Shown here one piece after another: positions 9,733 through 51,022 of a stretch of DNA of 64,000 nt (within the stretch, counting starts at the first letter, position 1; the number at the start of each line of letters is the position of its first letter). Made by a program: the position numbers and the translations under genes. The notes beneath the pieces were generated by a model. It saw only the letters and a list, made by a program, of their open reading frames with translations, had not been told where the DNA came from and made no database searches. Origin of the DNA: Naegleria gruberi (Eukaryota); the NCBI GenBank assembly GCA_000004985.1, contig GG738913.1; one strand, written 5' to 3'.

Positions 9733-12700
9733 TTATTTATCATTACTTGGACTGACAGGAGTGGCAGCAGTGACACCAATAGAACCAAAGCCACCAACAT
9801 CAATCTTCAAGAAGGATTTACTCTTCTTATCGTCATTTTCCAATCTCTTTTCAATCCATCCAATAATTTCAGTATTATCACTTTGAATGGCAAGTTGTAA
9901 AGCTTGTTCAAGTGAGACAGCTCCAATTTCACACAAATACTTGACAACATTCAATTGAACACGTTTGATGGCCATTTCCAAAGGTGAAACTCCATTCAAT
10001 GTCTTGATAGCACTAATGTCAACTTTCAATGGTGAATCAGCTGCTGGAGCGAATTTACCATGGTAATTTCCATTTTCAACTAATAATTTAACAACGTTTG
10101 GATGTCCATAACCAGCTGCAAAGTGGAGTGGAGTCAATTGTTTGTCTTCTCTTGTGTTGATGACTACTGAACAGTCACAACCCTTTTCAATGAGATATTG
10201 AGCACAGTCAACTCTGCCACTGATAGCACACAAGATAATTGGTCTCATTTGCAAGTCGTGTCTAGATTGATCAACTGAAACATTGTACTTTTCAACAAGC
10301 AACTTGACAGCATCCAAATTACCATTCTTAGTAGCAGCATGAATTGGTGGATAGGAATTTTCAGTGTACGATTCTTCATAACTTCCACAAGGATCCAATT
10401 TAACTTCATCAATCAAATATTCAATAACACTGACATTTCCTCCATAAGCAGCAGCTGAAAGAATTGTTTCGGCTCCCTCTGTAACAGCACCACTGTTAGC
10501 ACCCTTTTCAATGAGCTTCTTGACAAGCTCAACTTGAGAATTTTGAGCAGCAAAATAAAGTAATGATTGACCCAAACTATTGGAGAAGTTCAAAATGTTT
10601 TCCTCAGATGGGTTTTCAAGAGCTGTTTGAACAATCTTGGCACCGACGTGTCCTGGCAAATCCTTACATTGAACAGCAAGGAAAATTGGTAAATCCTTTC
10701 CACCAGAACGCTTTTGACAGTCAACTCCATGGTCAACCAAGAAAGAAGCAGCAGGTGGGCAGTGCAACATGCAATTGTGGAGAGCAGTATATTCTACAGA
10801 GTCAGCAGCACGTTTTTCACTTTCATTGACAAGATTGGTCAATTCTTCACTTGTCAACAAGTTAGCATTCAAAATTAATGGAATGGCATTCATGTTCTTT
10901 GCTCTGATAGCCAAATGCAAGAAGGTTGATGAAGAGTGCATTCCAGAAACAGTGCTACCAATATCGAAACGAGAGAGGGCAAACTTTGGAACTTTGGAGA
11001 AGAGAGTCTTCAAGATGACTTGACATTTTTCCAAACAGAATTCATCATGGAATTGAATTCCAGAAATTACAAATTCAATCAAGAGATTTCTCAAATTTTC
11101 CTTCACTTCACCATCAGAATTATCATCAGATGGTGGAGCAATGAATTCAGAAGCCAATTCTTGTAAGTGGGTTTCAATGGCTTCAGTAGTGACCAATCCA
11201 ATAGATCCTGTTTGAGTATTATCACCAATGATACTCTTTCCAATTGAAAGCCACTTGGTCACGAGTGGATTATTATTAATGGTGAAGAGAACAGATTGAT
11301 TTGCTGTTGAGCTAGTTGGAGCCAATGGATTGGAAGGTGCATTCTTGTAACCTGGAGTGGCTAATCTTTCATTGAAAGAGTTCAACAAGGTAGCATTCAT
11401 CAACTTTCTAGTATTTGAACCAATCAATGAAACCAACATTGCAAATGGACTCATCTTGCCATACTTTTTCAATTCTTCCAATTTAATATTACCATACTTG
11501 GAAGCTTCACTTTCTGTAATCTTGTCAACATTTCGTTTAGTTCTAAAGAACAAATTACCACCTCCTCTCTTGAGCAAAATCTCCAACATTCTTCCATTTT
11601 GATTGTAAATGGCATAGTGCATTGGTGTCCAACCAGCATCATTCTCAACATCAACTTGAGCATCTTCATAAACCAATTTTGTAACCAAATCAAATTCATT
11701 TTCACGAGCACACAAATTCAATGCAGTAAATCCACCATTCTTATCAATTTGATTAATGTTAATCTTACTTTCCTTCTTCTTTTCCAAGATCATACTCAAT
11801 AATTCTTCACGTGGTTTCAATTGACCTCCAGAACGTGGTGAAATGCCACGAGGAGACATTCCTCCAGATCTAGGTGAAATGGATGAACTAAATTCAGCTG
11901 TACCAGAAGTATTTAAACTCAATCCAGGAATATCACTTGCAAGTGTTGAGCTAGCAGTTGCTGTCGAAGAATTTTTACTGTCAGCAAGTGTCAAATCTCT
12001 TGAAATGGCAATGAAATGCAAAGCAGTTTGATCCAAACGATTCTTCTTATTAAAATCAACCCCATTATCCAACAAGAACTTGGTCAATTTCAAATCCTGA
12101 TTCTTCACAGCAATATGCAATAAAGAATCCTTGTCAACATAACCCATTTGTGTCAATTGTCTAATTTCTTCACTTGTCAAATATTGTTCATCTTCTTCAT
12201 CATCTGATAAATCTTCTTCTCTCAATCCAGGAGCAATTGTCATTCCTCTTGATGAAGGAGTTTTTGGAGTATCTTCTTTCGAATAATGTAAATAAGCTAA
12301 TTTCGAATATTCTCCATTACCAATCAAACTACGAACGTCAGTAAAGGAATGTTGTTCGATCAATTTTACAACTTTGAGATGAAGTTGAGTTTGAGAAGAT
12401 TTCAATTCGTCAATTACGTTTTCAATGGCGTTCATCCATTCTTTACGTTGTTCTTGATTTTCGGCTGAGAACCAATAGGTGAAAGTGGTTGGGGAGTCTT
12501 CAGATTGGTTATTTGATCCTTCCTCATTGGAAGGAGCTGTTGTTTTTAAACCAAAGGTGTTTTCTATTGTTATTCGAAAGTAAAATTAATATTCGAAAAA
12601 AGGTAAAATGATCGAATAATGTGATGATTACTTACGGAAACCTTTGTGATTTTCAATATCTACAATAGTAGAAAAACGAGTTAATGGAATCTTTTCTTCA

Positions 12701-12977
12701 TGTTTCTTATCAACTTTCTAAAATCAAATTATTCGAAACTAGACTAAATACAAAAACTTACTTCACTGTCTTTAAAACACAACATCTTCCTACCTGTCAA
12801 GACTACAAATCTTTTATATGATGACTTTTGAAAGAATTTCTTTTTCGAATTTTCCAAAACGAGTTTTCCACTCTTTTTCACACGACCAGCAAATCCAGAA
12901 CTTCCAACAGCTGAAGCAGCAGCAATTCCAGAAGTGCTGATGGATGTGGATGGAGCAAGTAAGTCAATGGTTGACAT
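9733..12977 (-). CDS. PH-domain plus ankyrin-repeat protein; three exons with introns 12718-12761 (44 nt) and 12564-12635 (72 nt)
   Basis: Exon 1 (12977-12762) encodes ...KKSGKLVLENSKKKFFQKSSYKRFVVLTGRKMLCFKDSE, ending at GAA|GTAAGT. Exon 2 (12717-12636) encodes KVDKKHEEKIPLTRFSTIVDIENHKGF, ending at C|GTAAGT. Exon 3 (12563-9733) continues ...TFTYWFSAENQEQRKEWMNAIENV, the PH-domain C-terminal W motif. Multiple ankyrin repeats follow (LHIAVKNQDLKLTKFLLDNGVDFN, GWTPMHYAIYNQNGRMLEILLKRG, TPLHFAAGYGHPNVVKLLVENG). Reading phase is conserved across both splice junctions. Confidence 0.8.
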
Positions 12978-14573
12978 GTTTTTTTTTTATGTTTGATTTT
13001 TGTGTGTTGATGGATGACTGATGGCAATATTGAAAAGTTTTTACATGACAGGAGATGGAAATAGTACATTGTTGGAGGATGAACATCTTTTGCTTGAAGT
13101 GAAAGTTTGAGAATGATAAGGATTTGTGTTATCCTAAAGTGATTATGTATTCGATTCGAATGGTGTGAAATTTCATATGGAGGAAGAACCCATTCAATTT
13201 AAACAAATAATAATTATTAATTTTGTTTTAAGTTTAAACTACTATTTTTGAATGCATCTTCAATTCTCTTCAATTCTTTGCTATGCTTCAATGGTTTGCT
13301 TCTTGCATTTCTTTCAAATTTTAAACAAACATAATAAAAGTAAATTATTTCTGAATTTTGTTGAATTCTGATTGAATATGAGGAATGGACTTTTTTTCGA
13401 TTGTAAATTACAAAATAAAGTGAAAATATTTTGAGTTGCTTAATAAGCGACCTCAATTCCGAGTTGTTAACAATTTTCCATGCTCAAAAAATTATTCAAA
13501 TGTCTGGAAATAACAAGAAAGGAACTCCACAAAGGAAACAACACACTGTATCATCTCCATCTCATCCTAAACAAAGAGTGGACCCACTACTCCCTCCCAA
13601 AAACTGTTGCGCTCATTAATCTTTGGTAAGGGATTAATTTCTGAGTGAGGTTTTTATCAATATTTCGGAAACATTGTAAAATTTTCTTTATTTCACTAAC
13701 ATTTCTTTCTCATATTCGCATTTATCGTTGGTCTGACGTTTTTTTTCTTATCCTTAGGATAATGATATTATCTCAAGACCTGCTCAATAAAGATTTATAT
13801 TCTTCAAAGCAGGTTCCAGACTGTTTCACCATTAAGGTGAACAGTCTCTGAGCTTTAATACCCATTTGTTTTTATTAATTTGCAATGTAACATAAGCTTT
13901 ATGGTGCTTAATGGTTCCTGGCAATTCAGAATAGTCCAACGACAAACCCGTTGCACTTGAATGTTTTGCTGCATACCCTTCTATTAATAAGAAAAGTTAT
14001 GATATTAATACATTGAAACCAGCCATTCAATTCTTTGCAGACGTGGAAGGTTGGCAACTCAATGTAGCTGGTAGTTTTTCAAGAGTTAAGAAAGGTCTTA
14101 CTAAAGCCTACTATATTGTGGATCGTTCTAAACTCAAACGTAATGGTTTCTCTTCTTATGATATTAAATCATATGTTGATTCGATTTCATCACATAATGA
14201 ATATAGTATTGATAATAATCTAATAAATATTCGTAAAGTGATTTGACTGTATTCCTTACTCAAACACATTTTCAAATAATATTATCCAATCCGAGATTTA
14301 TCCAAAAAGCCAAGCCCATAAAAATTCAACCAGATTGCCCTTTTTAATTAAGCCATAATATATCCAAAAAAAGCGGTTTGGATTCTGGATACTAATTCTA
14401 GGAATCAGGATTTTATTTTCAATTATAATAGTCAAGTGAGAACAAGAGGAGCACTATTCTCGATAATACATAATACAAATGCTTCAACTAAGAGTGAATC
14501 AAATGAATGGACATTTAAAAATTGCTTTGAGCAATTTAAATTGAACTGTAAATATATTGAAGAAACGTTAGAT

Positions 14574-17500
14574 CTATTGGAGAACCTTTTTACAAGTTTG
14601 ATATATATTATCCAAACTTTCTGCCATGTGTGATGAATCTGTTGTTCTGGAAATATTGCAAATTTCTCTCAGGGTTTGTTCATATCTCAATAATTGTGCC
14701 CTCATGGACTGATTTTCAAACCTCAAAGCATCCATTGTTGAACTTTTCAATTGTAATAATCCTTTCAATAGATCGACATGTGTAAAATGTTTGGTCGGCT
14801 CCTTTAGAATTTCTAATAGATTATTCATAATTTTGAGATAATGAATACATTCTCCTCTGTGTGTTGAACGAGATTGGATCATTGTAATTAAACACCTTCC
14901 AAGAATATCATTGAATAGCACCTTTTCCAAAAAAGAATTAGGATGGGAGCAAATAACCTCAAGATTTGGATCTATAAACTTGTCAATTTCCTTTCTAATA
15001 GATTGATGAAGCATGGCCTCTCCTTGTGGAGTACTTAATAACTTGAAAAAGTAATTTTTTCCAACTCCAAATAAACAAGATGAACCAGAATCTTCATTCG
15101 TTGATATAATACTCAATGTTCTGTTGCAGATCATTTTCATTAAGACACATCCCATTGAGTAAGTGTCACAATTCTTTGAGATTTTGAAATTTTCCGTTTG
15201 TTTGCCTTCTTCCTCATCATAAACCTCTGGAGCAAGATATTACCATGTCCCTATATTCACTGATATTGAGTGGTTGGATTGAATAACTTTGGAATTGTCA
15301 AAATCAATGAGTTTGGCATGTCCTTCATTGTTGATTATTACATTTGCCAACTTTAAATCTGTACAAAATTTCAGTATTGATTTTGAAAACAATAAACATA
15401 CCTCTGTGTGTGAAATTTAGATTATGCAAACTGATGACACCCTCAAGAACTTCAGTAAAGTACTGTAAAACTTCAATCAAATCTTGAGTGGATAAGCAAT
15501 GCTCCAAATTTAAATAATTTTGGTGCATTTCTGACATTACATGATCCAAAGGAGATCCCATTTCCATAATTAAATAGCTATACTTGCTATTATGCAACTC
15601 ATAAAAATTACATTCAAATGTTTTGACAATACCCTTCAAATTTGGTGTTTTCTGCATTTAAAGTTGTGAGTTAATGGAGTATGAGGTAGGAGACTTTTTA
15701 CGGGCAATTTTTCAACAATTTCTTCAATCCTACCGTCTCTAACATATTGATAGAGTTGAAATAGAAATTGAACATCCTCTCTAAGTTGTTCGGTCTCTAG
15801 GACGTAATTTAAAATCTGTTTGTTCTCATAAAGTTTGTTAATTTTTACACAGTCCAAAATTAGTTCAGTATCCAATTTTTTAGTCGAGTAGAGGATGGCC
15901 AATCCAAAAGTTTTGGTAGCTGTCAAGATAATATTTGAATCGCTTTGTAGGGAATTTGATGCAAATTTCAAAAGTTCACCTTTTTTCTCAATGAGTGGAG
16001 TGATAAGATTCTTTCCATACTTGAATTTTTCAGAGGCGAATTGAATGGAAAGTGGATTTTGAGCAATCGCCATCTGAACTATTTGTAAATCCTCTTTGAA
16101 AATACCTGGAACTATTTCAAGAAGCAATCCGTTCCTTTCTACATATTCCAATATCTTCATTTTGTCGTTTTTCAATTCTCTAGAAGCATATTCGAAAGAA
16201 TAATAGTTTTGAGAAACTGCAAGATCAACTATTGTAGGATTATTCCTCAATCTTTCAGATGCATACTTTAAAGATAGTCCTCTCGATTTTACAGCAATAG
16301 AAACGAGACTTTCATCATCCTGAAAGGAGTTTGGAAGAAATTCCAAAGCATATCCATTAAATTCGAGCAACTCCTTCATTGTTTCAATGCTTACAGTATT
16401 CCAATCTGTAAATTTTTGGAGAAGCATTACATTTCTTTCTGTCAATTCTTTTACAGACATATTTTCCTTCATTTCCAAGTTTAAATAAGAAAATTCCTGT
16501 TTCATCAAGAAATTAATAAACACCTGCAGTGCTGGGCAATCAGTTTTGATTCGAATAAAGTGTTCTAAATAATCCATGCCATGGATTATGTTATTTTTCG
16601 TAACCTTGTTACCAATACCGCCTCTACTAGTTTCACTTTGAGGAAATACCAAAGCCAATAGAAAATAGTATTGAACGGCCATTTCTGATGTTGTTATGGC
16701 TACTGCCTTCATATCATCAATCAACTTTTCAATAATTTCAAAAGTATAACTTTGTGAAAGGTTGTTGATATATCTGAAAACGATATCGACTCCCAAAATT
16801 GTTAGATTTGAAATCATACTTCTTATACTGGAACGATAGTCCATTGCTAGGAACCAGTAATTAATGTTCTTCCAATAAATTTCCTTTAACAATTCCAAAT
16901 TACAACAATTTCTTGATTTCTGTTGAAACATTTTCTTGAAACAAAACTCAATTAATTCAAAATCTTTTTCATCTTGAGTAGTTTCTACAAATTCTCTAAA
17001 AATACTGAAAGATTTGTTAAGGTTACGAATTGACTGATTGTAATATGTTTGTAAGAGCATTGCTTTAAATCTTAAAGTTGCTTCCTTGGATAGTATTTGA
17101 CTAATTACACCATTTTCGTCCAACAACATGCTGCATTCCGTGAGAGAGCAATAGCAATGTAGATCTTTTGATTCTTTAACTAGCATCAATGCATCAAGAA
17201 TATCTAGTTGTGTTACATGGGAAATAAAAATGAAATTGTCAATAGATATTCTTTCGTTAATAGAAATGACCTCTTGCGGTAGGTTTCGAATGCTCTTTTG
17301 TCTAAGATTCAACAATTTAAGCAGACTGGGACCAAAATATTTACCTTCATCATCGTACACAATTCCTGAATCACGAAATTGTTTCTTAGCTGATCCATCA
17401 CTATTAAATAAAATTGAGGAATATTGAGAGTGGACCAAACCTTTAGTCAGCACAATATAATTCTTTTCATCTAACATCATGAGTTCTCTAATGTCATATC

Positions 17501-18614
17501 CAAAATCCAATGGATCTGTATTTGTTTCATAATCCATTAATAAATTGAATGCTTGATGAATTTTATCATCCATGATAAATTGAAAAGCTTTTTGAATTAT
17601 TGAATGATCTTTTTTGGTTGGAATCTTAATATTTGGATGTGTGAATTTCATAACAATTTGAGTAGTAGACTTGTAATTAGTGATTCCTTCGATAGTTACA
17701 AATAGTCCATGAATGGTTTCTTGAATATTAGTGAATTTTGTTTGTTTCAATTTTGAACCTTCTTGGTGTTGGCTCATTAATTCTTCTACAGTCAATGTCT
17801 GAAATAAATCAACACTTTTGTCTTTGTTAATATTGTAAAATTGTAATGTTTTTCCATCATGTGAAATACAGGAAGCTAATATTGGTTGACAAATTGAAAT
17901 TCTCTTAAAAAAATAACCATTAAAAGTGATATCATTCTTTTCAATATTTGAAATCAATTGAGCAACAACTTGAATCTCTGTCTTTCCATTTCTAATATCG
18001 GCTTCATCTCCATTCAACACAATCTCTTTCAAAATTGTTTCGGTTTTGTAATCATACACTACATACACATTCCTAAATCTCAATACCATACTATTTGCGA
18101 GAAAAATCAATGAATCACATCTTTTAGATTCAAATTTCTCCAAATTAAATCTTTTTTCAAAAGATAGAAATAAAAAAGTCACTGGTAATTTTCTGTAAAC
18201 TGTAAATCGAAATTCCTTTCCCCAAACAATACAAAAAGAATCGTCTAAACTTTGTAAAGGAATTCTTCTTGTACAAGAAATCAATTCTCCTGTTTCTTTC
18301 TTTTGGAAAATGGAATTTCTTTCCTTTAGTGTAAAATCCAAATCAGATCCAGTCTTCTGGAATGCGTTACCCTCAAATTTAATTGTCAGCTCTTTTCCTA
18401 AAGCTGAAAAACTGTAAGAAAAGAGTTGTACAATAGAATTCACACCTTCACCTTGTAAACTTTTATCAATTACTGTTGAGTAATGAACAAGCAACATTCC
18501 TTTTTCTTCATGACATTCAATTTTTTGAATGGAACAAGTTTCGGGTGAATTTTCTTGGAATAAATGTTGGTGGTGAAAACTTACCACAAAATAATTCCCA
18601 AATTTGTTCCACAA
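14574..18614 (-). CDS. large protein with DUF4116-like repeats and a C-terminal Ser/Thr protein-kinase domain; 43-nt intron 15359-15401; in-frame TAA at 15240-15242 inside the kinase domain (possible pseudogene or sequence error); possible extra 5' exon 18615-18663
   Basis: 992-aa ORF plus downstream ORFs share one frame after removing GTATGT...TGTACAG (15401-15359). This gives ...LHNLNFTHR|DLKLANVIINNEGHAKLIDFDNS (HRDLK catalytic loop, DFD = DFG). Then ...NIGTW*YLAPEVYDEEE: the APE motif follows an in-frame TAA. The N-terminal half contains repeats of the DUF4116 style (...ALEFLPNSFQDDESLVSIAVKSRGLSLKYASERLRNN...). An upstream ATG at 18663 with a GTAAGT 31-nt candidate intron would add MARLLVQPLIQNISKLFVEQIWELFC. 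Confidence 0.7.
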
Positions 18615-19495: not shown

Positions 19496-22031
19496 ATGTC
19501 GCAACTTGATGTCAGCTCACATAATGCAAGAGATTCGTCTATTCCACTCCGTGCTACTACTTCTACCCTTCTAAAACAATCAACACTCGAGCAATCGTGT
19601 GAGAAAGTAAACGAAAGTTCATTAATCATTGAAACATTTCCTTCCCAACATTCTATTGGAAATCAAACACGAAAGGTTCATTCTCCACGTTCAGATCAAA
19701 CTCTTTCCGAAGAAGAAACAAATTCCATCATTTTGGAAATGAAAGAAATGGACGAAATGTTTCGAACAAACAAGAAGAAATCGAAATTTGCACATCTTTA
19801 TCAATCAAATAAGAAACAAGGTTTAAATCAATCGTTTGCCACATCAGAAAAGTTTAGTTCATCATCCCATAATGAAAATTTATGTGCATCTTGTTGTGGA
19901 ACTTTACGTTGGTCAACTGTCATGATTTTGACAGCTGTCTTTTCGATAATGATACTTTTATTTGTTGCAATCATTTCCTCGATTATTGTTACGAGTTATG
20001 ATGAGTTGGAAAGAGGAAATTCCAAAGCAGATATGAAAAGAGTTGTCAAAAGTTTTTATGATGAATTTGTGAATTCATTGGAGGTATGTTTGACTTTTGA
20101 CAATGAGTTTTAATTGAAATTTTGGATAGATTATGCAAGCAGTTGCTGTTTGGGATGAGCCTTATAAATTATTTCAAAGATATTATGATCCATCAGAAAA
20201 TCAAACTGAACTGGCAGTTGACATGCAACTTTTTTTGGAAACTAATATTGATTCAGCTCAAATGTTGTTGGAAAAACACAACTATGCGCTGTTCTATACC
20301 TTGAATGGAACTTTAATTGCAAGTAGAGCTCACAATCTTATAGACGAAAGTCAAGATTTATCCGATTTGTCAAAAATTCCAAAAGAATTATTGGAATTGA
20401 ATGTAAATTCGAATCCTCTTTTCAGAAATGCAGATAAAGCTGGAACTTCGAATGGTGGTTTCCTTAAAGTTTCGAATGGCGTAGTAGAAAATAGCAAAAT
20501 TGTCATGTTAGTGGCGAAACCAGTTTCTCCAAGTAATTTCAATGAAAATAATCCAACTTCTGGATTGATAGTGTATGGTAGACATGTCACTTATCAAACT
20601 AAGGAAAGAAATGTGTTTAGAGCTTCTACATGTGTTAGTTTTTTGAATTTTGACGAAACTTTACAAAAATATTCGAATGTTAATGCTACGAGAGTTTCAG
20701 TAACAAGTAATATTTGGGAGAATGATCAAGTTTTATCCATTGATATGTATGACGACCTCTCTAGTAGAAACTCTCTCGATGATCGTCATTGCTATTCGAA
20801 ATCTGAACTAAACTCAACTTCCCCTCGAGTTGGTTCCATTCAATTCCTTGCCGATCTCAATGGAAACCCAATCCTAGCCATCCGATCCGATACTGAACGA
20901 AACATTTACCTCCTAGGAGTTCGTTCCTTAGCCCTCTCCATTGCCTTACTAGTTTTTTCATGTATTATTGCAGCCATTGTAATCATTGCCTTTGTGGAGA
21001 GGCGAGTATTGAGGAGAATGTTTAAACTTTCAAGGAGAATTCAGGAAATTACAGCATCACATGATCCTAAACAGAGAATTGAAATTGGTCGAGGAGGAAA
21101 CTCAATTAATGCCTCGGAAAGAAATTTGATTTTTGATGAAATTGACACGACGGCGAAATATATTAATGAAATGTTGACTAGTTTGGATATTGTATTGGAA
21201 GAGCAGTTGAAGGAACAGAAAATGTTAAGAAAACTATTGGAAAGAGTGTACACAGCAGAGGAATCAGGAAGTGCCATTATGAATGCTGTGAAAGATGTCG
21301 TGTTTATTGTGAATGGAGATAGTGGACTAGTTCTGAATGCAAATAACAAGTTTTATGAACAGATGGAGAGGAGTGTGATGGAAGTGGAGGCAAAGGATCA
21401 AGTTTATGTTTCGAATTTGTTTTTGGAAATGAAATCACTCGAAGCCAAATTTCAGAATAATTTGAGAACTGCCTTACTCTCCCTTAATGATGGAAAATCG
21501 CATCTTTTCAGAGGAATGACTCCATCTGGTAAAATTATTAGATACAATGTATTCATTTCCAAAACAAAAGTCATGCAAAATAACGAGAAGGTCATTTCAT
21601 TCCTATTTATGGCAAAGAAGGACGATTCACTTTCTTTAGGAATTGACCAAGAAATCATTAATGAAAAATTTGAGAAAATGATTAATAATACGAAAAAGAG
21701 AAGAAAATTCCAGAAATTCTGCTCAGAAAAAGGTCAACTCTACAATTTCAAGTTTATTAGAGAAGTAAGGGATTACAAAACAACGGAACTTCCAATTGAC
21801 CGAGCAAGGAAACAATCTGAAATTTGTTCCAACTTTTTGAGGAAAGATTCTCCATTCCCATTGAATATTGGAGCAATTGATTTGATTAAGGGAGAAATTG
21901 AAAAGATTCTAAAAGAAGAAACACCTCAAATTTCCTTATTTGATGGATTGAATGATATTTTGGAAAGTATTTTGAAATCAGAAGTTTTTACACTTTACAA
22001 AATTCAAAAATCAAATCTTCTCTACACATAA
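19496..22031 (+). CDS. two-TM receptor-like protein with ~330-aa extracytoplasmic domain and C-terminal RGS domain; intron 20084-20129 (46 nt)
   Basis: Exon 1 ends ...SLE at GAG|GTATGT. Acceptor GATAG at 20129. Exon 2 continues in frame (IMQAVAVWDE...). TM1 is VMILTAVFSIMILLFVAIISSIIV and TM2 is IYLLGVRSLALSIALLVFSCIIAAIVIIAFV. The C-terminus has an RGS-like block (FQKFCSEKGQLYNFKFIREVRDYK...FLRKDSPFPLNIGAI...). Confidence 0.75.
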
Positions 22032-22106
22032 CTGTTGCAAATAGATTCAACTTATTAATTTTCCTAGTATTTTATGAACGACAGATGACTTTGATGTTTC
22101 ATTTTA

Positions 22107-24503
22107 TTAGCATTTAAAATTTATATTTGAGATTTCGACTGGAACACAATTAAGACAGGAAAGACTGTTGATTGAATAGTGAAGGGTAGTTCTATAATTC
22201 TTGCAAAGTTCAAAAAGTGCATTATCCGAATCTTTCGAATAATCTAAAAGAAAGTTCAGAACATAGATTATTCTATTGGCAACTAGGGTATCTGAAGGAT
22301 TTTCATCAATATATCTTTGAAAGATTCGTCTACTTTCTCTAACTTTCTCTGAAAAGTTTGCTTCTTCACTTTCCACTTCGAATATTGAAACGAAAGCATT
22401 TTGTAAACTTTTGAATTGAGAATTACAATTCGATTGTTCCAATTCGTACAGCCATTCGTCAGGATTAATCGAATTTTCTCTCAAAATTTCATGAACTGAA
22501 ATTAAATGTTTCGTTTTTGAATTGAAAATTTCCATTTCCAGTCGGTCAACTGGCCTCAACACGTATTGATTGATTATAATGGGAGATACTGAACCACTGT
22601 CCACCAAAATTTTACAATCGAGAGTTTGCCCAAAGGTGGCCAATTTTCTGGCGTTCTGAACTATAGGCCCAACAATCGAATAAGAACGAAGCGAATTGCT
22701 ACCTACATTTCCAACAAATGCCATATCTGTAAAAATTCCTATCGAATAACAAAGTTTTCTTTCAGATTTACCATGAATATTATCTAAAATCTTGCAAATC
22801 TTTAGACTTGCTTCGATTGCACTTGATTCACATTTCTTATTTCCATCGACAAAAGTGAGCTGATATTCGTCCATGCTAAAAATGTGTAAATCCGAAACTT
22901 GCATTGTTTTGCAAAGAGTTGAGAGTCCGTTAGCAATTTTGGAAAAGATATTCGAAAGATCATGGGCTGATGTGTCTTCGTTGAAGCCAAATAATTTTAC
23001 GTTTACAACGCTAATTCTGGAATAGTTTAAACCTAATTTGAATAAACTTCCTGTGGTGATTTTTGAACTATTTTGAGAGGAAGTTGTAGAGTTTCGTAAA
23101 GTGGAGGTCTTGATCATTTTGGAAGTGCCAATTTCTGAGGAAACTTTGATGGATTGTTGATCCTTTTCGAATAAGGAAGGTTTCCACTCAACCTGTTCGA
23201 AATTCTTCAATTGATTAAAAACATTTTCTGGAAGAAAGGATTTAAATTCGTTCAGCCAAGTTACCATGTCAAATAAATGTTCATAAATACTATCCACTTC
23301 TTTGAATTTGCTAGAATTGAAATTACATGACTTCAAGTCAAAAGTTTTGATTTTCAAGAATTGATTTTCCAAGAATCGAAGAGGGTCTGTTACCAAATGA
23401 CCAATGATAAAACTACACACCACTCCAAATACTATCACTACAATAGCAACTCCCACAGAAATGCCAGAATTAATATTTGTAGTTTTTTCGACATCTGACT
23501 TGAAGACAACCATGTAGAGAATCCAGTGCACGTTCAAAAACTTGTAATCAACTTTTGAAATATCATAACCAACCCCCAGGCTATATATCTGAAAGAATGA
23601 AGGAATTTCTTTTAAATTACCATATTGGGAGCGAACATCTTTCATCAGTTGACCAGCATCTTTGTCAGTTAAATCAAATATCGAAACCCTTGATCTCCCT
23701 TCACTTGAAGATGAGTTAATTGATGCTCCAATAACCAAATCATTCAATTCTGCCAGTATAACATATCCATTTCCAATTAAGGTTAATTCTTGTAAAAATT
23801 CTTGAATGGAATTCAACATTAGATTCGATTTTGCAATTCCAATCAGCTGCTTTTGTCTAGTATGTAGATAATGTGAAGAGTTATATATTTTGGTGGAGCA
23901 GTAAATTGCCATTCCAGAGTTGACCACCAAATATGGTTCACCAATGATTACATTTGTTTGTAATTCCTCAAATAGTTGTAAACTCTGATTCCAGTAAGGT
24001 TGTTCTGTAACATGATAGGTAGAAGAATCATTTCTAAAAACACTAGTTGTGCTTCCATCTGTTTCGTTAACATTCCAAAAGATTATTCCCTCGTTTAGTT
24101 TCTCTAAATAGGTCAGTATTGTATTTGGTGGATAACCAGTCAAGGTATAGGTATACAATTGATCAGGATAGAAAACTCCCAATCCAGACGATTTAAAAAT
24201 CTTGTATTTCTCATACAAATAAACAAGTTTCGGTTTTTCTCCAATTACTCCATTATTAATGTCAGCTGCCAAGCTCATTGACAGCTTGATATGTGGTTCT
24301 ATCTCTGAATTGATATAAGAAACTGTTTTATCCCCCACCTTTCCTATCAAATCTTTTGTCATGTTTTGAAGAGCATTCGTAGATCCCACAAATGAAGCCA
24401 ACCAAACAAATATTGAACAAGTTATCAATAGGATAACTATTAGAAAGGTAATAAAAGCTCTCATTGATATGAATCCCATGCATGCGATGGGTTTCTTTTC
24501 CAT
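22107..24503 (-). CDS. receptor-type class III adenylyl/guanylyl cyclase: N-terminal signal-anchor, large extracytoplasmic domain, TM, C-terminal cyclase catalytic domain
   Basis: 798-aa ORF. TM1 FITFLIVILLITCSIFVWLASFV. TM2 ISVGVAIVVIVFGVVCSFIIGHLV. C-terminal region fits the class III cyclase core: ...KLFGFNEDTSA...FSMDEYQLTFVDGN...RKLCYSIGIFTDMAFVGNVGSNSLRSYSIVGPIVQNARKLATFGQ...ILVDS (R.GI..G.v..G.vG...r..Y...G..VN.A.R pattern). Confidence 0.8.
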   Translation of the reverse strand: MEKKPIACMGFISMRAFITFLIVILLITCSIFVWLASFVGSTNALQNMTKDLIGKVGDKTVSYINSEIEPHIKLSMSLAADINNGVIGEKPKLVYLYEKYKIFKSSGLGVFYPDQLYTYTLTGYPPNTILTYLEKLNEGIIFWNVNETDGSTTSVFRNDSSTYHVTEQPYWNQSLQLFEELQTNVIIGEPYLVVNSGMAIYCSTKIYNSSHYLHTRQKQLIGIAKSNLMLNSIQEFLQELTLIGNGYVILAELNDLVIGASINSSSSEGRSRVSIFDLTDKDAGQLMKDVRSQYGNLKEIPSFFQIYSLGVGYDISKVDYKFLNVHWILYMVVFKSDVEKTTNINSGISVGVAIVVIVFGVVCSFIIGHLVTDPLRFLENQFLKIKTFDLKSCNFNSSKFKEVDSIYEHLFDMVTWLNEFKSFLPENVFNQLKNFEQVEWKPSLFEKDQQSIKVSSEIGTSKMIKTSTLRNSTTSSQNSSKITTGSLFKLGLNYSRISVVNVKLFGFNEDTSAHDLSNIFSKIANGLSTLCKTMQVSDLHIFSMDEYQLTFVDGNKKCESSAIEASLKICKILDNIHGKSERKLCYSIGIFTDMAFVGNVGSNSLRSYSIVGPIVQNARKLATFGQTLDCKILVDSGSVSPIIINQYVLRPVDRLEMEIFNSKTKHLISVHEILRENSINPDEWLYELEQSNCNSQFKSLQNAFVSIFEVESEEANFSEKVRESRRIFQRYIDENPSDTLVANRIIYVLNFLLDYSKDSDNALFELCKNYRTTLHYSINSLSCLNCVPVEISNINFKC

Positions 24504-25108: not shown

Positions 25109-27017
25109 ATGCAAAAATTCAACGCCGGCGTTCTGTTGATGACCCTAATGGTCGCCATCAGCATGCTCCTGTTATTAACGAGCCAATCAGTGAGAGCCGA
25201 TTTGCCAGTCCATTGCTTGTATAATTCCACAGCTCCTGGAGTTTGGGAATTTGAATTGACTGATCAAAACATGAGTGGAGATGATGTTGCTGCCAAGTGC
25301 GATATTCGTGCTCCAATTCAAGCAACCCGTACAATGAAAGTCTATTTGCAAATGCCAGATATTGCCATTGATGAGAAGGGAAATACTGGATTCTTTACTT
25401 TGGTTTATGATCAAGGCTTTGAAGTTGTTGTTGGTGGAAATAAGTATTGGGCCTTTTTTAATTATACAACTGCTGGAAAGGGTATGTTTTTATTAATATT
25501 CAATGATAACAATAACAAAATTAATATCATCATTTTCATTAATTAATTAATCATGATGATGAAATTTAATAATTAATTTTATGATGATGCAAATAATTTT
25601 GATTGGATGCGGAATGTGGTATGATGGATAATTAAATATCTAATGATTTTTTGCATGATTTTTGTGCAATGCAATGATGTTGATGTGGTGAATATGAACA
25701 TACAGACTCTCAAGGAAATGACATTATCATTTCAAACTGTGATCGTACTTTCACTGGTTGGTATCATGAAGCTAAGGTCAAGGCCAAGTCTTGGGGATGT
25801 TACAGAGCCAGAAGACTCTCATTGCTCCAAGGATCTACTGCTACTCCAAATAAGTTTACTCATACTGTTGCTCCTAGACCAAACTATAAGGGAATGGTTT
25901 TCAAGAATGACATGTCTTTGATTAATGATTTGAATGCTTTGCATGCTAAGGGAGAAATCTCATGGAAGGCCAAGCCAATGCAAGAATGGGAAAATCAACC
26001 ACTTGAAACTGTTGTTCCAAAATTCGGTCAAAGAAGTGAATCTTTCAGATTGAAGCAACGTAGAGAACATACCAAGTTTATGAGAGCTAAATTCGGTGAA
26101 CAAGCCAACAAGAAGGTCTTGCTCGAATTGAGAAGTGAAGATTTCAGCAAGGCTGCTGGTAACTTGACTTTCCATCATTTGAGAGATATTGCTGCTAAGG
26201 GTTTCGTTTCCATTCCAAAAGCTTTTGACTGGAGAAATGTCAATGGTCAAGACTTTGTTTCACCAATTAGATCCCAAGGTCAATGCGGATCTTGCTACAG
26301 GTAAGTTTAGTTTTTGAGAATTTGTTGAAATTTAACGAATTACTTGAACAGTTTTTCAACAACTGCCATGATGGAAGCCAGAAAGAGAGTTTTCACTCAA
26401 AACAAGGAACAACCAGTTTACAGTCCAGAAAATATCATTTCATGCTCTTTCTACTCTCAAGGATGTGATGGTGGTTTTGCCTATCTCAGTAAGTAATATT
26501 ATTTAATATTTCGGTTTGATTAATCAAAAATATAGTTTCCAAATGGGGTGAAGACTTTGGAATTATCGCTGAGCAATGTGATCCATACACTGGAACTCCA
26601 CACAAGTGCAATCTCAATCAAGCTTGTTCAACCAGACAATACTGGACCAATTATAGATATACTGGTGGTTATTATGGTGCTGTCACTGTTGAAAATATGC
26701 AATTGGATGTCTTAAAGTATGGTCCACTTTCTGTCTCTATGGAAGTTTACAATGATCTCTTCAATTATCACAGTGGTATTTATAGACATGTTTCATCATC
26801 AAAGCTTACTTCTCCAGTTCCAAATCCATTCGAACTCACTAACCATGTTGTTTTGATTGTTGGTTGGGGTGAAAATGAAAAGGGCGAAAAATATTGGATT
26901 GTCAAGAACAGTTGGGGAACATCATTTGGAATGGATGGTTATTTCTTGATTGCTAGAGGTGTTGATGAATGTGCTATTGAATCTGAAAATGCTTCTGCTA
27001 TTCCAACTCAACCATAA
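25109..27017 (+). CDS. CTSC: cathepsin C / dipeptidyl peptidase I (papain-family cysteine protease with N-terminal exclusion domain); 4 exons: 25109-25481, 25706-26300, 26352-26488, 26536-27017
   Basis: Exon 1 has a signal peptide and the exclusion-domain signature DLPVHCLYNSTAPGVWEFELTD...YLQMPDIAIDEKGNTGFFTLVYDQGFEVVVGGNKYWAFFNY. Donor AAGG|GTATGT. The 224-nt intron has no AG until the acceptor ATACAG at 25705. Exon 2 gives ...TFTGWYHEAKVKAKSWGCY...DWRNVNGQDFVSPIRSQGQCGSCY (active-site Cys). Exon 3 gives SFSTTAMMEARKRV...CSFYSQGCDGGFAYL. Exon 4 gives ...PNPFELTNHVVLIVGWGENEKGEKYWIVKNSWGTSFGMDGYFLIARGVDECAIES (His and Asn catalytic residues). Phases are consistent at all junctions. Confidence 0.9.
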
Positions 27018-27475: not shown

Positions 27476-28963
27476 TGGAAGCAAGTAGTAGAATTGGAGG
27501 AAGAGTTTGTTCCGATGCCGAGAGAGGAATTGAAATTGGAGGTATGTTCATGATGAAATTGTCCCATATTTAAATATTTAAATATTCGTGTGGGAAATAT
27601 TTAAATATTCATGTGAAAATTATGAAAATTATAATGTCAAATAATGTGTGAAATTGAATTGATGAAAAAATTCCATGACAGGTGAATTTGTTCATGGAGA
27701 AGGAAGCATGTTGTGGGATGTGATGGTGAATCAATTGAAAGTTCCACTCAAATTTACTCATGATCTTTCAAAGGAAACTCCAAAGGAATGTGGATTGGGA
27801 ATGTTGATTGGTAGGTTTTCTTCCAAATGAGTTTAGGATGACATCTATTCGTATAATACTAATAATTATTCAAAACAGATGGTAAAATTGTTGAAATGGA
27901 TAGTCCAATATTCCAAAAGGTTTTGGAAATTCTTGGACAATTGACTGCTGATGATGAATTAAAATCATCTAAGGATATGACTTTGAAGGAATGGCTCATT
28001 TGGAGAGATGTTCCACAACAATATCACTTGTTGATTGATTCAATTCTTGCTCAAACCAATTCAAGCTGTCTCCATACTCACAGTGCTAAGGGAGCTCAAG
28101 AAGAAGATTTGAATGGTGAATCCAATCCTCAAATTGGTTACGGAAATTATCACATTCAAGGAAAGAATACTATGGAACATTCATTAATTCCATACTTGAC
28201 CAAAAATATCAAGAAGAATCAAATCAAATTGAATTATATTGTTCAATCCATTGATTACAGTTCTAAATTAATCAAAATTAATGGAGGAGAAATTACCTGT
28301 GATAAGATTATTCTCACAGTTCCATTGACCACATTGAGAAATCGTTTGATTCAATTCACCCCTGAATTGTCACCATTGAGAAAACACTTGATTCAAAATC
28401 AATTCCACATGCACGGAGGTTGCAAGATTATTCTCGGTTTTAAGAAACCATTCTGGAAGGATCAAATTCCAAATGTGAATGTTGTCTGTGTGGGAGATCA
28501 AGATCCACTCATTTCTCAATTCTGGTTCTCATCCACATCAAAGGAACAAACTGAAAAATATGGACATATCATTACTGGTTTCTCAATGAGTAATAGAGCT
28601 GATAATGGACTGATTTTGGGAGAGGAAGAAATCAAGGATCACTTTAGAAAATTCATTCAAAAGACCTTTGATTTAAATGATAAAAATGATGGATTCATTG
28701 GTGGAAAGATTCGTAATTGGCAAGATGTTCAACACGTTGCAGGCGCCTATTCATTTGCCTACACAAGTGACTCATCGAGAAGAAACTATATTAAAAATCC
28801 AAGAGTTCTCCTCTCTCAACCAATTGATTCCAAGCTTTACTTTGCCGGAGAATTATACTGTGCTCACTCTCCTGCCACTATTCACGGAGCTATGGAAACT
28901 GGAAGAGATGCTGCTTTGAGATTGATTAATGAAAGTTCTCCTCAAAGAGTTAGCAAACTTTAA
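27476..28963 (+). CDS. flavin-containing amine oxidase (polyamine/monoamine-oxidase-like), 5' end lost in the N-gap at 27426-27475; exons 27476-27541, 27682-27810, 27879-28963
   Basis: EASSRIGGRVCSDAERGIEIGG|EFVHGEGSMLWDVM... matches the amine-oxidase motif E...R.GGR...G.......G..W.HG. C-terminal LYFAGELYCAHSPATIHGAMETGRDAALRL is the typical amine-oxidase end. Donors GTATGT and GTAGGT; acceptors GACAG and AAACAG; phases consistent. The FAD GxGxxG N-terminus presumably lies in the gap. Confidence 0.8.
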
Positions 28964-50057: not shown

Positions 50058-51022
50058 TTATTGAATGAAACATTTCTTCTTTTCATCATCAATTTCCGAA
50101 TCAAATTGTGAATCTTCATCAGCACCTCCACTCTTTGATTGCTTCTTCTTCAATCTCTTTCTATATTTTTCCATCTTTTTTTCATATTCCTCAACTTGTT
50201 TAAAGTATGAATCTGGTGGCCATTTGTTTTCAGTAACATGTTTCAGATTTTCACCTGTTAAAAGTTCCCATTCCCTTCTTGCTTTCATTGGACCATAATT
50301 TGTAGATATGAAATGGAGACAAAAGTTGGCCAATTGATTGGCTTCATAAGTTTGAGCTAGTAACAGTAGACCTATAATGTCAATGTCAGCTTTTTCAATT
50401 CCTTGAGCTACTGATTTGTCAATATTTTTCGAGATGAAAATTTCACACATTGAGGTCAATCCAGACATGCCATATTCGTTGGCCAAGCTCAACAATCCAA
50501 CAGCATTTCTTTCATTGATGGTAGAGTGAGCAGAGTACAGATATTCGAATAGGGCATGGAATTCACTTATTCTATTCTCATTCTCACCAATTTCACCACT
50601 CAAATCTACTTGCCTTGATGAGTGCTCTACGAAATTGCCCTCAAACATTGTTCTGAATACATCACAATTAGCAGAGAGGAATAGTTTGTGTCCCTGAAAA
50701 TTCTTGGAAGAATCAGTCGTGGAAAAGACAATTTCGACATCGGAGTGAGTTTTCTTATCAAAGTACTTTTTCTTAATTTCACTACCCAATAGATCATTAA
50801 GATAGGTTTCAATACTTTCATTGAACACATCTTCCTCTCCTCTCTGGTAATTACTGACTATATTGTCAGTGTATTCACATTCAAAGATGGTAGATGCAAT
50901 CTTGACCTTATTGAGAAATTGATCTTTTTTACACCTTTCCAGCATAGTTTCCGATCCTCCATAATATTGGATTTCCAATAGGGATTTGAAAGCCCTATGA
51001 TGAATAGTGTTGGAGAGTCTGA
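50058..51022 (-). CDS. RhoBTB-like protein copy 2, C-terminal (BTB) portion only visible; remainder in the 2.8-kb gap 51023-53849
   Basis: ~98% identical to 42585-43555, including BTB domain 2 and the C-terminal acidic tail (...[30 protein letters not shown]). ORFs extending into X runs are gap artefacts. Confidence 0.6.

What the first reader, a model, noticed from the sequence alone, without database searches (positions are those of the whole stretch)
19496..24503. Convergent pair of two-TM 'sensor' receptors with different outputs: RGS (19496-22031, +) and class III nucleotidyl cyclase (22107-24503, -)
Both proteins share a bacterial-sensor-like topology: TM, ~330-aa extracytoplasmic domain, TM, then cytoplasmic output. 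They sit tail-to-tail with 3' ends 75 bp apart. One output makes cyclic nucleotide and the other terminates G-alpha signalling. The extracellular domains are not obviously homologous to each other. Their fold (Cache/CHASE-like?) is unknown from inspection.
Basis: partly seen in the sequence, partly recalled or inferred. Interest (0 to 1): 0.5.

Follow-up and report, generated by a model that had tools for sequence, protein, structure and literature searches.

The report
Neighbouring sensor receptors: RGS and dead cyclase
Two adjacent Naegleria gruberi genes encode bacterial-style two-helix membrane sensors: one ends in a G-protein "off-switch" (RGS) domain, the other in a cyclase-like domain that lacks the catalytic residues, and their being neighbours looks coincidental.

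Summary
Two convergent genes, with stop codons 75 bp apart, each encode TM / ~310-aa ectodomain / TM / cytoplasmic output. The window is Naegleria gruberi.

It belongs to a family of at least 50 proteins in Heterolobosea (Naegleria, Willaertia, Acrasis). This copy appears absent from public protein sets.

That domain fails Pfam's cut-off and lacks the canonical catalytic set in all 8 family members. Metal Asp 1 is K/H/Q/E, the substrate Lys is an invariant Ile, and the Asn and Arg positions are out of register or replaced. It is still conserved (52% mean identity), so it is most likely a pseudo-cyclase or regulatory output.

The two ectodomains share only the Cache-superfamily fold. The pairing is absent from the four related loci examined, and both families are large, so adjacency is probably chance. 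The RGS and sensor-topology reading is supported. "Makes cyclic nucleotide" and a coupled pair are not.

The parts
19496..20083 (+). RGS-receptor gene, exon 1: cytoplasmic low-complexity N-terminus (aa 1-141), TM1 (aa 142-160, nt 19919-19975), start of ectodomain
   Evidence: ORF and hydropathy. This segment aligns with family members, TM1 included.
20084..20129 (+). 46-nt intron (GTATGT...TAG), phase 0
   Evidence: Sequence read. Splicing restores the frame, extends the CHASE4 match and gives continuous alignment with homologues.
20130..22031 (+). RGS-receptor gene, exon 2 (stop included)
   Evidence: ORF. phmmer finds 270 relatives, 50 of them with E<=1e-10.
19976..20939 (+). Ectodomain aa 161-466 (spans the intron): CHASE4 domain with a conserved Cys pair (C364/C417)
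   Evidence: Pfam CHASE4 scores 32.8 and 30.2 bits against a cut-off of 26.2. 40 of 57 relatives carry CHASE4. The family profile hits PDB 9p50 at E 8.8e-9. The Cys pair is nearly invariant.
20940..20996 (+). TM2 (aa 467-485)
   Evidence: Hydropathy. Seven K/R lie in the 15 aa after it.
20997..21185 (+). HAMP-like segment (aa ~486-548)
   Evidence: Pfam HAMP scores only 13.6-15.8 bits here, below the cut-off of 25. 29 of 57 relatives match HAMP at E<=1e-3 at the same position.
21219..21611 (+). PAS-like region (aa ~560-690)
   Evidence: No Pfam hit in this copy. Relatives carry PAS, PAS_9 or PAS_8. The family profile hits PAS structures 3mjq and 4hh2.
21666..21998 (+). RGS domain (aa 709-819)
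   Evidence: Pfam RGS scores 35-37.7 bits against a cut-off of 23.9. The family profile hits RGS18/2/10/16/4 at about E 1e-14. Equivalents of RGS4 N88 and N128 are kept; those of S85, E87, D163 and R167 are not.
22032..22106 (.). 75-bp interval between the two stop codons
22107..24503 (-). Cyclase-like receptor gene, 798 aa, single ORF. The public model (P0001) starts at M48 and lacks TM1.
   Evidence: Paralogues keep the N-terminal TM.
24399..24455 (-). TM1 (aa 17-35)
   Evidence: Hydropathy. Aligned with paralogues.
23457..24398 (-). Ectodomain aa 36-349: double-Cache (dCache) fold
23400..23456 (-). TM2 (aa 350-368)
   Evidence: Hydropathy.
23205..23399 (-). HAMP-like segment (aa 369-415) plus the invariant motif WLNEFKSFLPENVFNQL (aa 416-432), which resembles the LP-x6-LK element that directly precedes canonical cyclase domains
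   Evidence: No Pfam HAMP hit was obtained, so 'HAMP-like' rests on the PLR..L start and the position after TM2. Mean pairwise identity is 67% (HAMP-like) and 90% (motif), the highest in the protein. Canonical cyclases carry LLLNILPSAIVDRLK at the corresponding place.
23049..23204 (-). Low-complexity S/T/N/Q-rich linker (aa 434-485), not conserved
   Evidence: 23% mean identity and no invariant column. Length varies among paralogues.
22479..23048 (-). Degenerate class III cyclase-homology domain (aa 486-675)
   Evidence: AF2 model has pLDDT 78.6 and pTM 0.81. Foldseek against PDB puts 5o5k, Rv1625c, CyaB and RhGC on top at E 4e-10. hhalign against 40 canonical domains gives probability 90.6% and E 1.6e-7. 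Catalytic positions are K503, I541, D545, S609, Q616 and K620.
22194..22478 (-). C-terminal helical domain (aa 676-770) with the invariant DEW.YEL.Q motif; function unknown
   Evidence: Four helices in the AF2 model. Invariant residues are listed. No Pfam family matches.

Best explanation
These are two independent members of two lineage-expanded heterolobosean receptor families. Both are built on a bacterial sensor chassis: TM, Cache-superfamily ectodomain, TM, then a HAMP-type segment. They happen to lie tail-to-tail in a compact genome.

**Gene 1** is a CHASE4-HAMP-PAS-RGS protein. The inferred mechanism is that ligand binding to the CHASE4 ectodomain is relayed through TM2, HAMP and PAS to alter the availability or activity of the C-terminal RGS domain. 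That would tune GTP hydrolysis on Naegleria's self-activating G-alpha subunits. It would then be a two-TM analogue of the seven-TM RGS receptors of plants and Naegleria.

**Gene 2** is a dCache-HAMP-like receptor derived from a receptor-type class III cyclase. Its cyclase-homology domain keeps the fold and is conserved, but has lost the canonical catalytic residues. It most likely does not make cAMP or cGMP as a homodimer. It probably acts as a ligand-regulated non-catalytic output, such as a scaffold or a partner or decoy for active cyclases.

Shown here: gene structures, topology, domain identities, residue substitutions, family distribution, and lack of conserved linkage. Inferred: ligand gating, GAP activity, and the non-catalytic role.
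For: **Gene structure and source**
- Gene structures and topology.
- The organism is N. gruberi.

**RGS receptor**
- CHASE4 and RGS are above Pfam cut-offs.
- phmmer finds 270 relatives. Among the 57 aligned sequences (this protein plus the top 56 relatives), 42 carry RGS, 40 CHASE4 and 29 HAMP, and PAS is present in many.
- Members come from Naegleria, Willaertia and Acrasis.
- The family profile hits solved RGS domains at about 1e-14 and a diguanylate-cyclase periplasmic domain at 8.8e-9.
- N. fowleri G-alpha subunits are self-activating and are regulated by membrane RGS proteins (PMC9283941).

**Cyclase-like receptor**
- dCache fold. Cyclase fold.
- It is below the Pfam cut-off.
- A canonical cyclase HMM scores this family 18-30 bits, and only over the second half of the domain. 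CHASE4-linked canonical cyclases score 92-140 bits and keep FxDIxGFT, KIKTIGD and WGDTVNxASRMES.
- The residue table shows K/H/Q/E at Asp 1 and invariant Ile at the Lys position in all 8 members.
- The domain has 52% mean identity and 22% invariant columns, against 23% and 0% for the linker.

**No conserved linkage**
-.
- A second, unrelated RGS receptor gene lies in the same 64 kb.
Against: - There are no functional data for either protein.
- The structure models rest on shallow alignments of 7-8 sequences, with pLDDT 71 and 79.
- The first half of the cyclase domain aligns to canonical domains only with low confidence. hhalign and HMMER disagree on whether D545 matches metal Asp 2. The model's hairpin favours the HMMER version.
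- N617 is invariant and one residue off the catalytic Asn. K620 sits at the Arg position in 6 of 8 members. S609 resembles the Thr I recall at this position in class IIIb cyclases. A C2-like role in a heterodimer is therefore not excluded.
- The window's RGS domain has lost several G-alpha contact residues that the family consensus keeps.
- The linkage test used paralogues and distant homologues, not strict orthologues. N. gruberi paralogue loci could not be fetched.
Confidence: 0.6

Rival explanations
1. One reading: an active receptor cyclase and a receptor RGS form a functionally coupled convergent pair, one producing cyclic nucleotide and the other terminating G-alpha signalling.
For: The two genes have the same overall topology and lie 75 bp apart. 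The cyclase fold is real. In animals G-alpha regulates cyclases (general knowledge; PMC9283941).
Against: The catalytic residues are missing in all 8 family members and the domain is below the Pfam cut-off. Adjacency is absent at four related loci. N. fowleri has about 108 RGS-domain and 80 cyclase genes (PMC9283941). With a gene count of roughly 11,000-16,000, which I give from memory, about one adjacent RGS-cyclase pair is expected by chance (my rough estimate).
Confidence: 0.07
2. The cyclase-like domain is the 'C2-like' half of a heterodimeric cyclase. It supplies transition-state residues (N617, K620, S609) to a partner that supplies the two metal Asp residues, so that ligand binding to the dCache domain controls a shared single active site.
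For: N617, S609, R606 and G612 are invariant, and K620 is present in 6 of 8 members. Loss of the metal Asp residues alongside a retained helix-4 region is, from my recall, the pattern of mammalian C2 and sGC beta domains. Heterodimeric rhodopsin-cyclases are reported in fungi (PMC10622942, title and abstract seen); I recall that one subunit there is degenerate, but did not read that in the paper.
Against: The purine-binding Lys/Glu is an invariant Ile. N617 is one residue out of register in every alignment. The Arg position is I or N in two members. No partner has been identified. A disordered linker of about 50-100 aa separates the conserved LP-x6-LK motif from the domain.
Confidence: 0.15
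3. The domain is an active homodimeric cyclase, or another nucleotidyl transferase, that uses a non-canonical metal site such as the adjacent acidic pair D/E545-E546 at the beta2-beta3 turn.
For: [DE]-E-[FY] at the hairpin turn is conserved in 7 of 8 members and sits at the turn in the model. From my own knowledge, this is where GGDEF domains place their metal-binding acidic pair.
Against: No conserved acidic residue lies at or near the end of beta1. There is no purine-specifying residue. No Pfam GGDEF hit was found. The top structural matches are all cyclases.
Confidence: 0.05
4. The RGS gene in the window is a decaying or non-functional paralogue rather than a working receptor.
For: No protein at least 50% identical exists in a 15-billion-protein collection, so it is apparently unannotated. 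Its RGS domain has lost the S85, E87, D163 and R167 equivalents that the family keeps. HAMP and PAS score below threshold in this copy.
Against: The reading frame is intact for 829 aa, with a clean phase-0 intron. CHASE4 and RGS are both above Pfam cut-offs. The conserved ectodomain Cys pair and both TM segments are kept.
Confidence: 0.1

Closest known systems
Seven-transmembrane RGS proteins (Arabidopsis AtRGS1; the 28 N. fowleri 7TM-RGS proteins, PMC9283941)
   Same: A membrane receptor-like protein with a C-terminal RGS domain, in an organism whose G-alpha subunits self-activate, so that the GAP step is the regulated step. One such giant NHL/EGF/GPS-RGS gene lies in this same window at 2-6412.
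   Different: It has two TM helices rather than seven. Sensing is by a bacterial CHASE4 ectodomain relayed through HAMP and PAS. There is no sequence relationship outside the RGS domain.
Bacterial CHASE4-(HAMP)-(PAS)-GGDEF/EAL sensors (P. aeruginosa IsmP, PA0847 and PA2072; PMC10904736, PMC12625894)
   Same: The same TM-CHASE4-TM sensor module. The family profile matches a solved diguanylate-cyclase periplasmic domain at E 8.8e-9. CHASE4 has two subdomains and belongs to the Cache clan (PMC10904736, PMC4822843).
   Different: The output is a eukaryotic RGS domain instead of c-di-GMP enzymes. The ligand is unknown (known CHASE4 ligands are iron and extracellular ATP).
Receptor-type class III adenylyl/guanylyl cyclases with Cache/CHASE-HAMP sensors (e.g. 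Acrasis kona P0052; metagenomic P0046, P0055 and P0084; the Naegleria 'bacterial-type adenylate cyclase' with Cache noted in PMC4822843)
   Same: TM, Cache-type ectodomain, TM, HAMP-type segment, LP-x6-LK motif, then a cyclase-fold domain.
   Different: The canonical catalytic residues are replaced in all 8 members. A variable low-complexity linker is inserted between the motif and the domain. There is an extra conserved C-terminal helical domain. The family was found only in Naegleria.
Degenerate cyclase-homology domains that work as non-catalytic halves (mammalian adenylyl cyclase C2, soluble guanylyl cyclase beta1, both from my own knowledge; heterodimeric fungal rhodopsin cyclases, PMC10622942, abstract only)
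   Same: The cyclase fold is retained, the metal-binding Asp residues are lost, and the domain stays conserved.
   Different: As I recall them, those domains keep the complementary Lys/Asp or Glu/Cys and the Asn/Arg set. Here that set is also largely missing or out of register, so neither half-site is canonical.
dCache_1 ligand-binding domains of bacterial chemoreceptors and kinases (PctA/B/C, Mlp24, McpX, DctB)
   Different: About 12-15% identity. There is no Pfam dCache_1 hit for this protein. It occurs in a eukaryote. The ligand pocket was not analysed.

Membership tests
RGS domain (Pfam PF00615) | Profile match at or above the curated gathering score | tested here: met
   37.7 bits (exon-2 ORF) and 35.0 bits (spliced protein) against a cut-off of 23.9. 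The family profile hits solved RGS domains at about E 1e-14.
RGS domain (Pfam PF00615) | G-alpha contact residues (RGS4 S85, E87, N88, N128, D163, R167; list recalled from the RGS4-Gi-alpha1 structure) | tested here: inconclusive
   The N88 and N128 equivalents are kept ('YNFKF', 'PLNIG'). S85 is Q, E87 is Y, and the D163 and R167 equivalents are lost. The family consensus keeps E.S.EN, LN.S and F.RF.
RGS domain (Pfam PF00615) | GTPase-accelerating activity on a G-alpha subunit | not testable with these tools
   Needs a biochemical assay.
Seven-transmembrane RGS receptors (AtRGS1 type) | Seven TM helices N-terminal to the RGS domain | tested here: not met
   Only two hydrophobic segments, at 142-160 and 467-485. 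Relatives also have two.
CHASE4 (Pfam PF05228, Cache clan) | Profile match at or above the gathering score | tested here: met
   32.8 and 30.2 bits against a cut-off of 26.2. 40 of 57 relatives match.
CHASE4 (Pfam PF05228, Cache clan) | Extracytoplasmic position between two TM helices, upstream of a signalling output | tested here: met
   Residues 161-466 lie between TM1 and TM2. HAMP, PAS and RGS lie downstream.
CHASE4 (Pfam PF05228, Cache clan) | Two-subdomain PAS-like fold as in the IsmP CHASE4 crystal structure | not tested
Indirect support only: the family profile hits 9p50 at E 8.8e-9, while the single sequence finds nothing in PDB.
HAMP (Pfam PF00672), RGS protein | Profile match at or above the gathering score, directly after TM2 | tested here: inconclusive
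   13.6-15.8 bits against a cut-off of 25 in this copy. 29 of 57 relatives match at E<=1e-3 at the homologous position.
Class III nucleotidyl cyclase catalytic domain (Pfam PF00211) | Profile match at or above the gathering score | tested here: not met
   The whole protein has no hit at E<=1. The isolated domain scores 16.6 bits against 21.9. 4 of 8 relatives match only weakly, best E 4.5e-4.
Class III nucleotidyl cyclase catalytic domain (Pfam PF00211) | Cyclase-homology fold | tested here: met
   AF2 pLDDT 78.6. The top 50 Foldseek PDB hits are all class III cyclases, with E down to 4e-10 and target TM-score 0.64-0.77 for most single-domain chains. hhalign probability is 90.6%.
Class III nucleotidyl cyclase catalytic domain (Pfam PF00211) | Two metal-binding Asp residues (end of beta1; beta2-beta3 turn) | tested here: not met
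   Asp 1 is K503, and K,K,H,Q,E,K,H,K across the family. Asp 2 is D545, and D or E across the family. Canonical controls keep both.
Class III nucleotidyl cyclase catalytic domain (Pfam PF00211) | Substrate-specifying pair (Lys/Asp or Thr for ATP; Glu/Cys for GTP) | tested here: not met
   The Lys/Glu position is an invariant I541. The second position is an invariant S609.
Class III nucleotidyl cyclase catalytic domain (Pfam PF00211) | Transition-state Asn and Arg on helix 4 (GDxVNxASR) | tested here: inconclusive
   In register these are Q616 (Q/D/S/T in the family) and K620 (K/I/N). An invariant N617 lies one residue downstream.
Class III nucleotidyl cyclase catalytic domain (Pfam PF00211) | cAMP or cGMP synthesis | not testable with these tools
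   Needs an enzyme assay.
Double Cache (dCache_1, Pfam PF02743) | Profile match at or above the gathering score | tested here: not met
   No hit for the window protein, even at E<=10 on the isolated ectodomain. 2 of 8 relatives match weakly, best E 0.0031.
Double Cache (dCache_1, Pfam PF02743) | Long N-terminal helix plus two PAS-like modules, located between two TM helices | tested here: met

The most novel reading that the evidence does not exclude
Heterolobosean amoebae have wired bacterial Cache/HAMP sensor modules directly into eukaryotic G-protein signalling as ligand-gated GAPs (CHASE4-HAMP-PAS-RGS). This would be a GPCR-independent, two-TM route for extracellular cues to control self-activating G-alpha subunits. 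The same chassis also drives real cyclases in relatives, and a Naegleria-specific ligand-regulated pseudo-cyclase that modulates cyclic-nucleotide signalling without catalysis.
Probability: 0.3. Interest if true: 0.65.

Novelty: new variant of a known kind. Interest (0 to 1): 0.4.

Why it matters
Naegleria G-alpha subunits self-activate, so the GAP step is the regulated step (PMC9283941). A family of two-TM, Cache-type receptor-RGS proteins would then be a second, bacterial-derived way of coupling extracellular ligands to G proteins, alongside seven-TM RGS proteins.

It also shows that Cache-superfamily sensors are more common in Naegleria than the single protein counted in 2016 (PMC4822843).

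The degenerate cyclase family adds a receptor-type pseudo-enzyme to a genus credited with about 80 cyclases in N. fowleri, and warns against counting every cyclase-fold gene as an enzyme.

Two annotation corrections follow. The RGS gene appears to be missing from public protein sets. The cyclase-like gene model lacks its first 47 residues, including TM1.

The gene pair itself is probably not a functional unit.

Tried and rejected
- **Word-indexed homology search with the spliced RGS protein** found nothing. The exhaustive phmmer search was needed instead.
- **N. gruberi paralogue loci.** The look-up of encoding contigs has no record for the N. gruberi proteins P0001 and P0002, so these loci could not be inspected.
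- **Homology between the two ectodomains.** hhalign gave no similarity (probability 0.1%), so the idea of a duplicated sensor was rejected.
- **RGS ectodomain against PDB.** Single-sequence phmmer found no hit.
- **Canonical cyclase motif scan.** A six-frame scan of the window and the loci held at that point (L001, L002) found none. Reference cyclases were therefore obtained by querying with a hand-written consensus and using only the real hits.
- **afdb50 fold library** was unavailable.
- **Literature.** Anantharaman et al. 2011 (Gene 475:63), which may describe RGS architectures in Naegleria, is not held. Searches found no description of a CHASE4-RGS or HAMP-RGS receptor, or of this pseudo-cyclase family.
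- **The very low GC at 50-54 kb** is an assembly gap of N, not biology.
- **A GGDEF-like reading** of the [DE]-E-[FY] hairpin was considered. It was rejected as the primary call because all top structural and profile matches are cyclases.

Full report
**Source and observation**

The window is Naegleria gruberi. The minus-strand ORF is 100% identical to an N. gruberi 'predicted protein'. ORFs lie at the stated coordinates.

The plus-strand gene is not one ORF. Frame is lost at 20113 and regained at 20133. The sequence shows a GTATGT...TAG intron of 46 nt (20084-20129, phase 0). Splicing gives an 829-aa protein.

Three results support the splice. The CHASE4 match rises from 28.8 to 32.8 bits and extends N-terminally. 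The exon-1 part, including TM1, aligns with 18 homologues. That alignment continues without a break across the junction.

The minus-strand gene is a single 798-aa ORF (22107-24503). The two stop codons are 75 bp apart.

Hydropathy gives exactly two TM segments in each protein. They are 142-160 and 467-485 in the RGS protein, and 17-35 and 350-368 in the other. The loops are 306 and 314 aa.

**The RGS gene**

Pfam places RGS at aa 709-819 (35-37.7 bits, cut-off 23.9). It places CHASE4 in the loop between the TM helices (30.2-32.8 bits, cut-off 26.2). HAMP scores below threshold in this copy (13.6-15.8 bits), and PAS is not detected.

An exhaustive phmmer search found 270 relatives, 50 of them at E<=1e-10. 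Among the 57 aligned sequences (this protein plus its top 56 relatives), 42 carry RGS, 40 CHASE4 and 29 HAMP. PAS families appear in 7-14 of them. Most full-length members have two TM helices about 310-340 aa apart.

Named members come from N. gruberi, N. lovaniensis, Willaertia magna and Acrasis kona. The rest are metagenomic.

The family profile hits solved RGS domains (RGS18, 2, 10, 16, 4) at about E 1e-14. It hits PAS structures at about 1e-5. Its ectodomain part hits a diguanylate-cyclase periplasmic domain (9p50) at 8.8e-9.

CHASE4 belongs to the Cache clan (PMC4822843). It has a membrane-distal and a membrane-proximal subdomain (PMC10904736). Known ligands are iron and extracellular ATP (PMC10904736; PMC12625894).

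The architecture is therefore TM-CHASE4-TM-HAMP-PAS-RGS.

Two caveats apply to this copy.
- The best database relative is only 35% identical, and the word-indexed search found nothing. The gene therefore appears to be missing from public protein sets.
- Its RGS domain keeps the equivalents of RGS4 N88 and N128. It has lost those of S85, E87, D163 and R167, which the family consensus retains.

**The 'cyclase' gene: ectodomain**

The public model starts at M48 and lacks TM1. The longer ORF is supported by paralogues.

Only eight relatives were found, all in Naegleria.

Both ectodomains therefore belong to the Cache structural superfamily. They are not detectably related by profile (hhalign probability 0.1%).

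**The 'cyclase' gene: cytoplasmic part**

After TM2 comes a HAMP-like segment and an invariant motif, WLNEFKSFLPENVFNQL. At 90% mean identity this motif is the most conserved stretch of the protein. It has the same LP-x6-LK spacing as the LLLNILPSAIVDRLK element that directly precedes canonical cyclase domains. I recall this as the 'cyclase transducer element', but could not retrieve the paper.

A variable, low-complexity linker follows (23% identity).

The C-terminal 313 aa model well (pLDDT 78.6, pTM 0.81). The top 50 Foldseek PDB hits are all class III cyclases, with E down to 4e-10. hhalign against 40 real bacterial cyclase domains gives 90.6% probability. The fold assignment is therefore sound.

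**Catalytic residues**

Membership as an enzyme fails on several counts. The whole protein has no Pfam hit. The isolated domain scores 16.6 bits against a cut-off of 21.9.

An HMM of canonical domains scores this family 18-30 bits, and only over the second half of the domain. The same HMM scores CHASE4-linked cyclases found among the RGS relatives 92-140 bits. Those proteins keep FxDIxGFT, KIKTIGD and WGDTVNxASRMES.

| Canonical role | Residue in this protein | Across the 8 family members |
|---|---|---|
| Metal Asp 1 | K503, at the end of beta1 in the model | K, K, H, Q, E, K, H, K |
| Substrate Lys/Glu | I541 | invariant Ile |
| Metal Asp 2 | D545, at the beta2-beta3 turn | D or E |
| Asp/Thr/Cys | S609 | invariant Ser |
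| Asn | Q616 | Q/D/S/T; an invariant N617 lies one residue on |
| Arg | K620 | K/I/N |

The domain is nevertheless conserved. It has 52% mean identity and 22% invariant columns, similar to the ectodomain. It is followed by a conserved four-helix domain of unknown function. This points to a retained, non-canonical role.

**Is the pair a unit?**

Cyclase-like homologues in N. fowleri (two loci) and N. lovaniensis (one locus) have no RGS domain within 8 kb. A Willaertia RGS homologue has no cyclase-fold domain nearby. Both results hold for the called genes and for six-frame HMM searches.

Both families are large. N. fowleri has 28 seven-TM RGS proteins, 79 other RGS proteins, one RGS-RhoGEF and 80 cyclases (PMC9283941). 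A second RGS receptor, a 2136-aa NHL/EGF/GPS-RGS protein, lies in this same window.

With roughly 11,000-16,000 genes (a figure from memory), about 2 x 108 x 80 / N, or about one adjacent RGS-cyclase pair, is expected by chance. I therefore regard the adjacency as coincidental. Strict orthologues could not be tested.

**Mechanism (inferred)**

- **RGS protein.** Ligand binding to CHASE4 is relayed through TM2, HAMP and PAS to the RGS domain. That controls GTP hydrolysis on self-activating G-alpha subunits. This works like AtRGS1 and the Nf 7TM-RGS proteins, but on a bacterial two-TM chassis.
- **Cyclase-like protein.** A dCache-gated, non-catalytic output, acting as a scaffold or decoy. Less likely, it is a C2-like half-site partner of an active cyclase, given the invariant N617, S609 and R606.

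Among relatives of the CHASE4-HAMP module there are canonical cyclases. The same chassis is therefore combined with different outputs in these organisms.

**Novelty**

No paper in the searchable library describes a CHASE4/HAMP-RGS receptor or this degenerate cyclase family. One possibly relevant survey, Anantharaman et al. 2011, is not held. A 2016 census reported Cache in a single Naegleria protein (PMC4822843).

Family members exist in databases only under automatic names. I rate this a new variant of known kinds, of moderate interest. The gene-pair idea rates low.

Noticed in passing
window 2-6412 (+), ORF runs off the 5' end: A 2136-aa ORF with NHL/teneurin-like repeats, EGF-like domains, a GPS motif and an RGS domain. 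It looks like one of the giant seven-TM RGS receptors with complex N-termini described for N. fowleri (PMC9283941). It is a second RGS receptor gene within the same 64 kb.
   Followed up: partly
window 19496-22031 (+): The RGS-receptor gene has no protein at least 50% identical in a 15-billion-protein collection, and the word-indexed search returned nothing. It appears to be unannotated in the public N. gruberi gene set.
   Followed up: partly
window 24363-24503 (-): The public N. gruberi model of the cyclase-like gene (P0001, 751 aa) starts at M48 and omits the first 47 residues, including TM1. All full-length paralogues (all but the truncated P0008) align through this segment.
   Followed up: yes
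window 15636-18614 (-): A 992-aa ORF with four DUF4116 repeats at its C-terminus (E 4e-37). Function unknown.
   Followed up: no
window 51023-53849, plus ten shorter runs (27426, 29970, 45125, 47739, 48772, 49850, 54700, 58202, 60486, 62853): Runs of N (assembly gaps). They explain the GC of 0.02 at 52-54 kb, and the long 'ORFs' at 50058-53888 are artefacts.
   Followed up: yes
relatives P0037, P0046, P0052 (Acrasis kona), P0055, P0081, P0084, P0122: Proteins that share the CHASE4-TM-HAMP module with the RGS family but end in fully canonical class III cyclase domains (92-140 bits, all catalytic motifs present). This is the same sensor chassis with a different output.
   Followed up: partly
RGS protein aa 364 and 417 (window ~20631-20633 and ~20790-20792): Two Cys residues in the membrane-proximal half of the CHASE4 ectodomain are nearly invariant across 57 family members. 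This suggests a disulfide, consistent with an extracellular location.
   Followed up: no
cyclase-like protein aa 544-547 (window ~22863-22874, - strand): The beta2-beta3 hairpin turn reads S-[MVI]-[DE]-E-[YF] in 7 of 8 family members. It superficially recalls the GG[DE]EF motif that occupies the equivalent hairpin in diguanylate cyclases. No GGDEF profile hit was found.
   Followed up: partly
window 25822-26304 (+) and neighbours: A papain-family cysteine protease fragment, probably part of a multi-exon gene starting near 25109. Other neighbours are a thioredoxin-domain gene at 7098-7958, an ankyrin-repeat gene at 9733-12435 and an amine oxidase at 27896-28963. Apart from the RGS gene at 2-6412, none of the neighbouring ORFs that gave a Pfam hit is related to G-protein or cyclic-nucleotide signalling; five others had no hit.
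   Followed up: no
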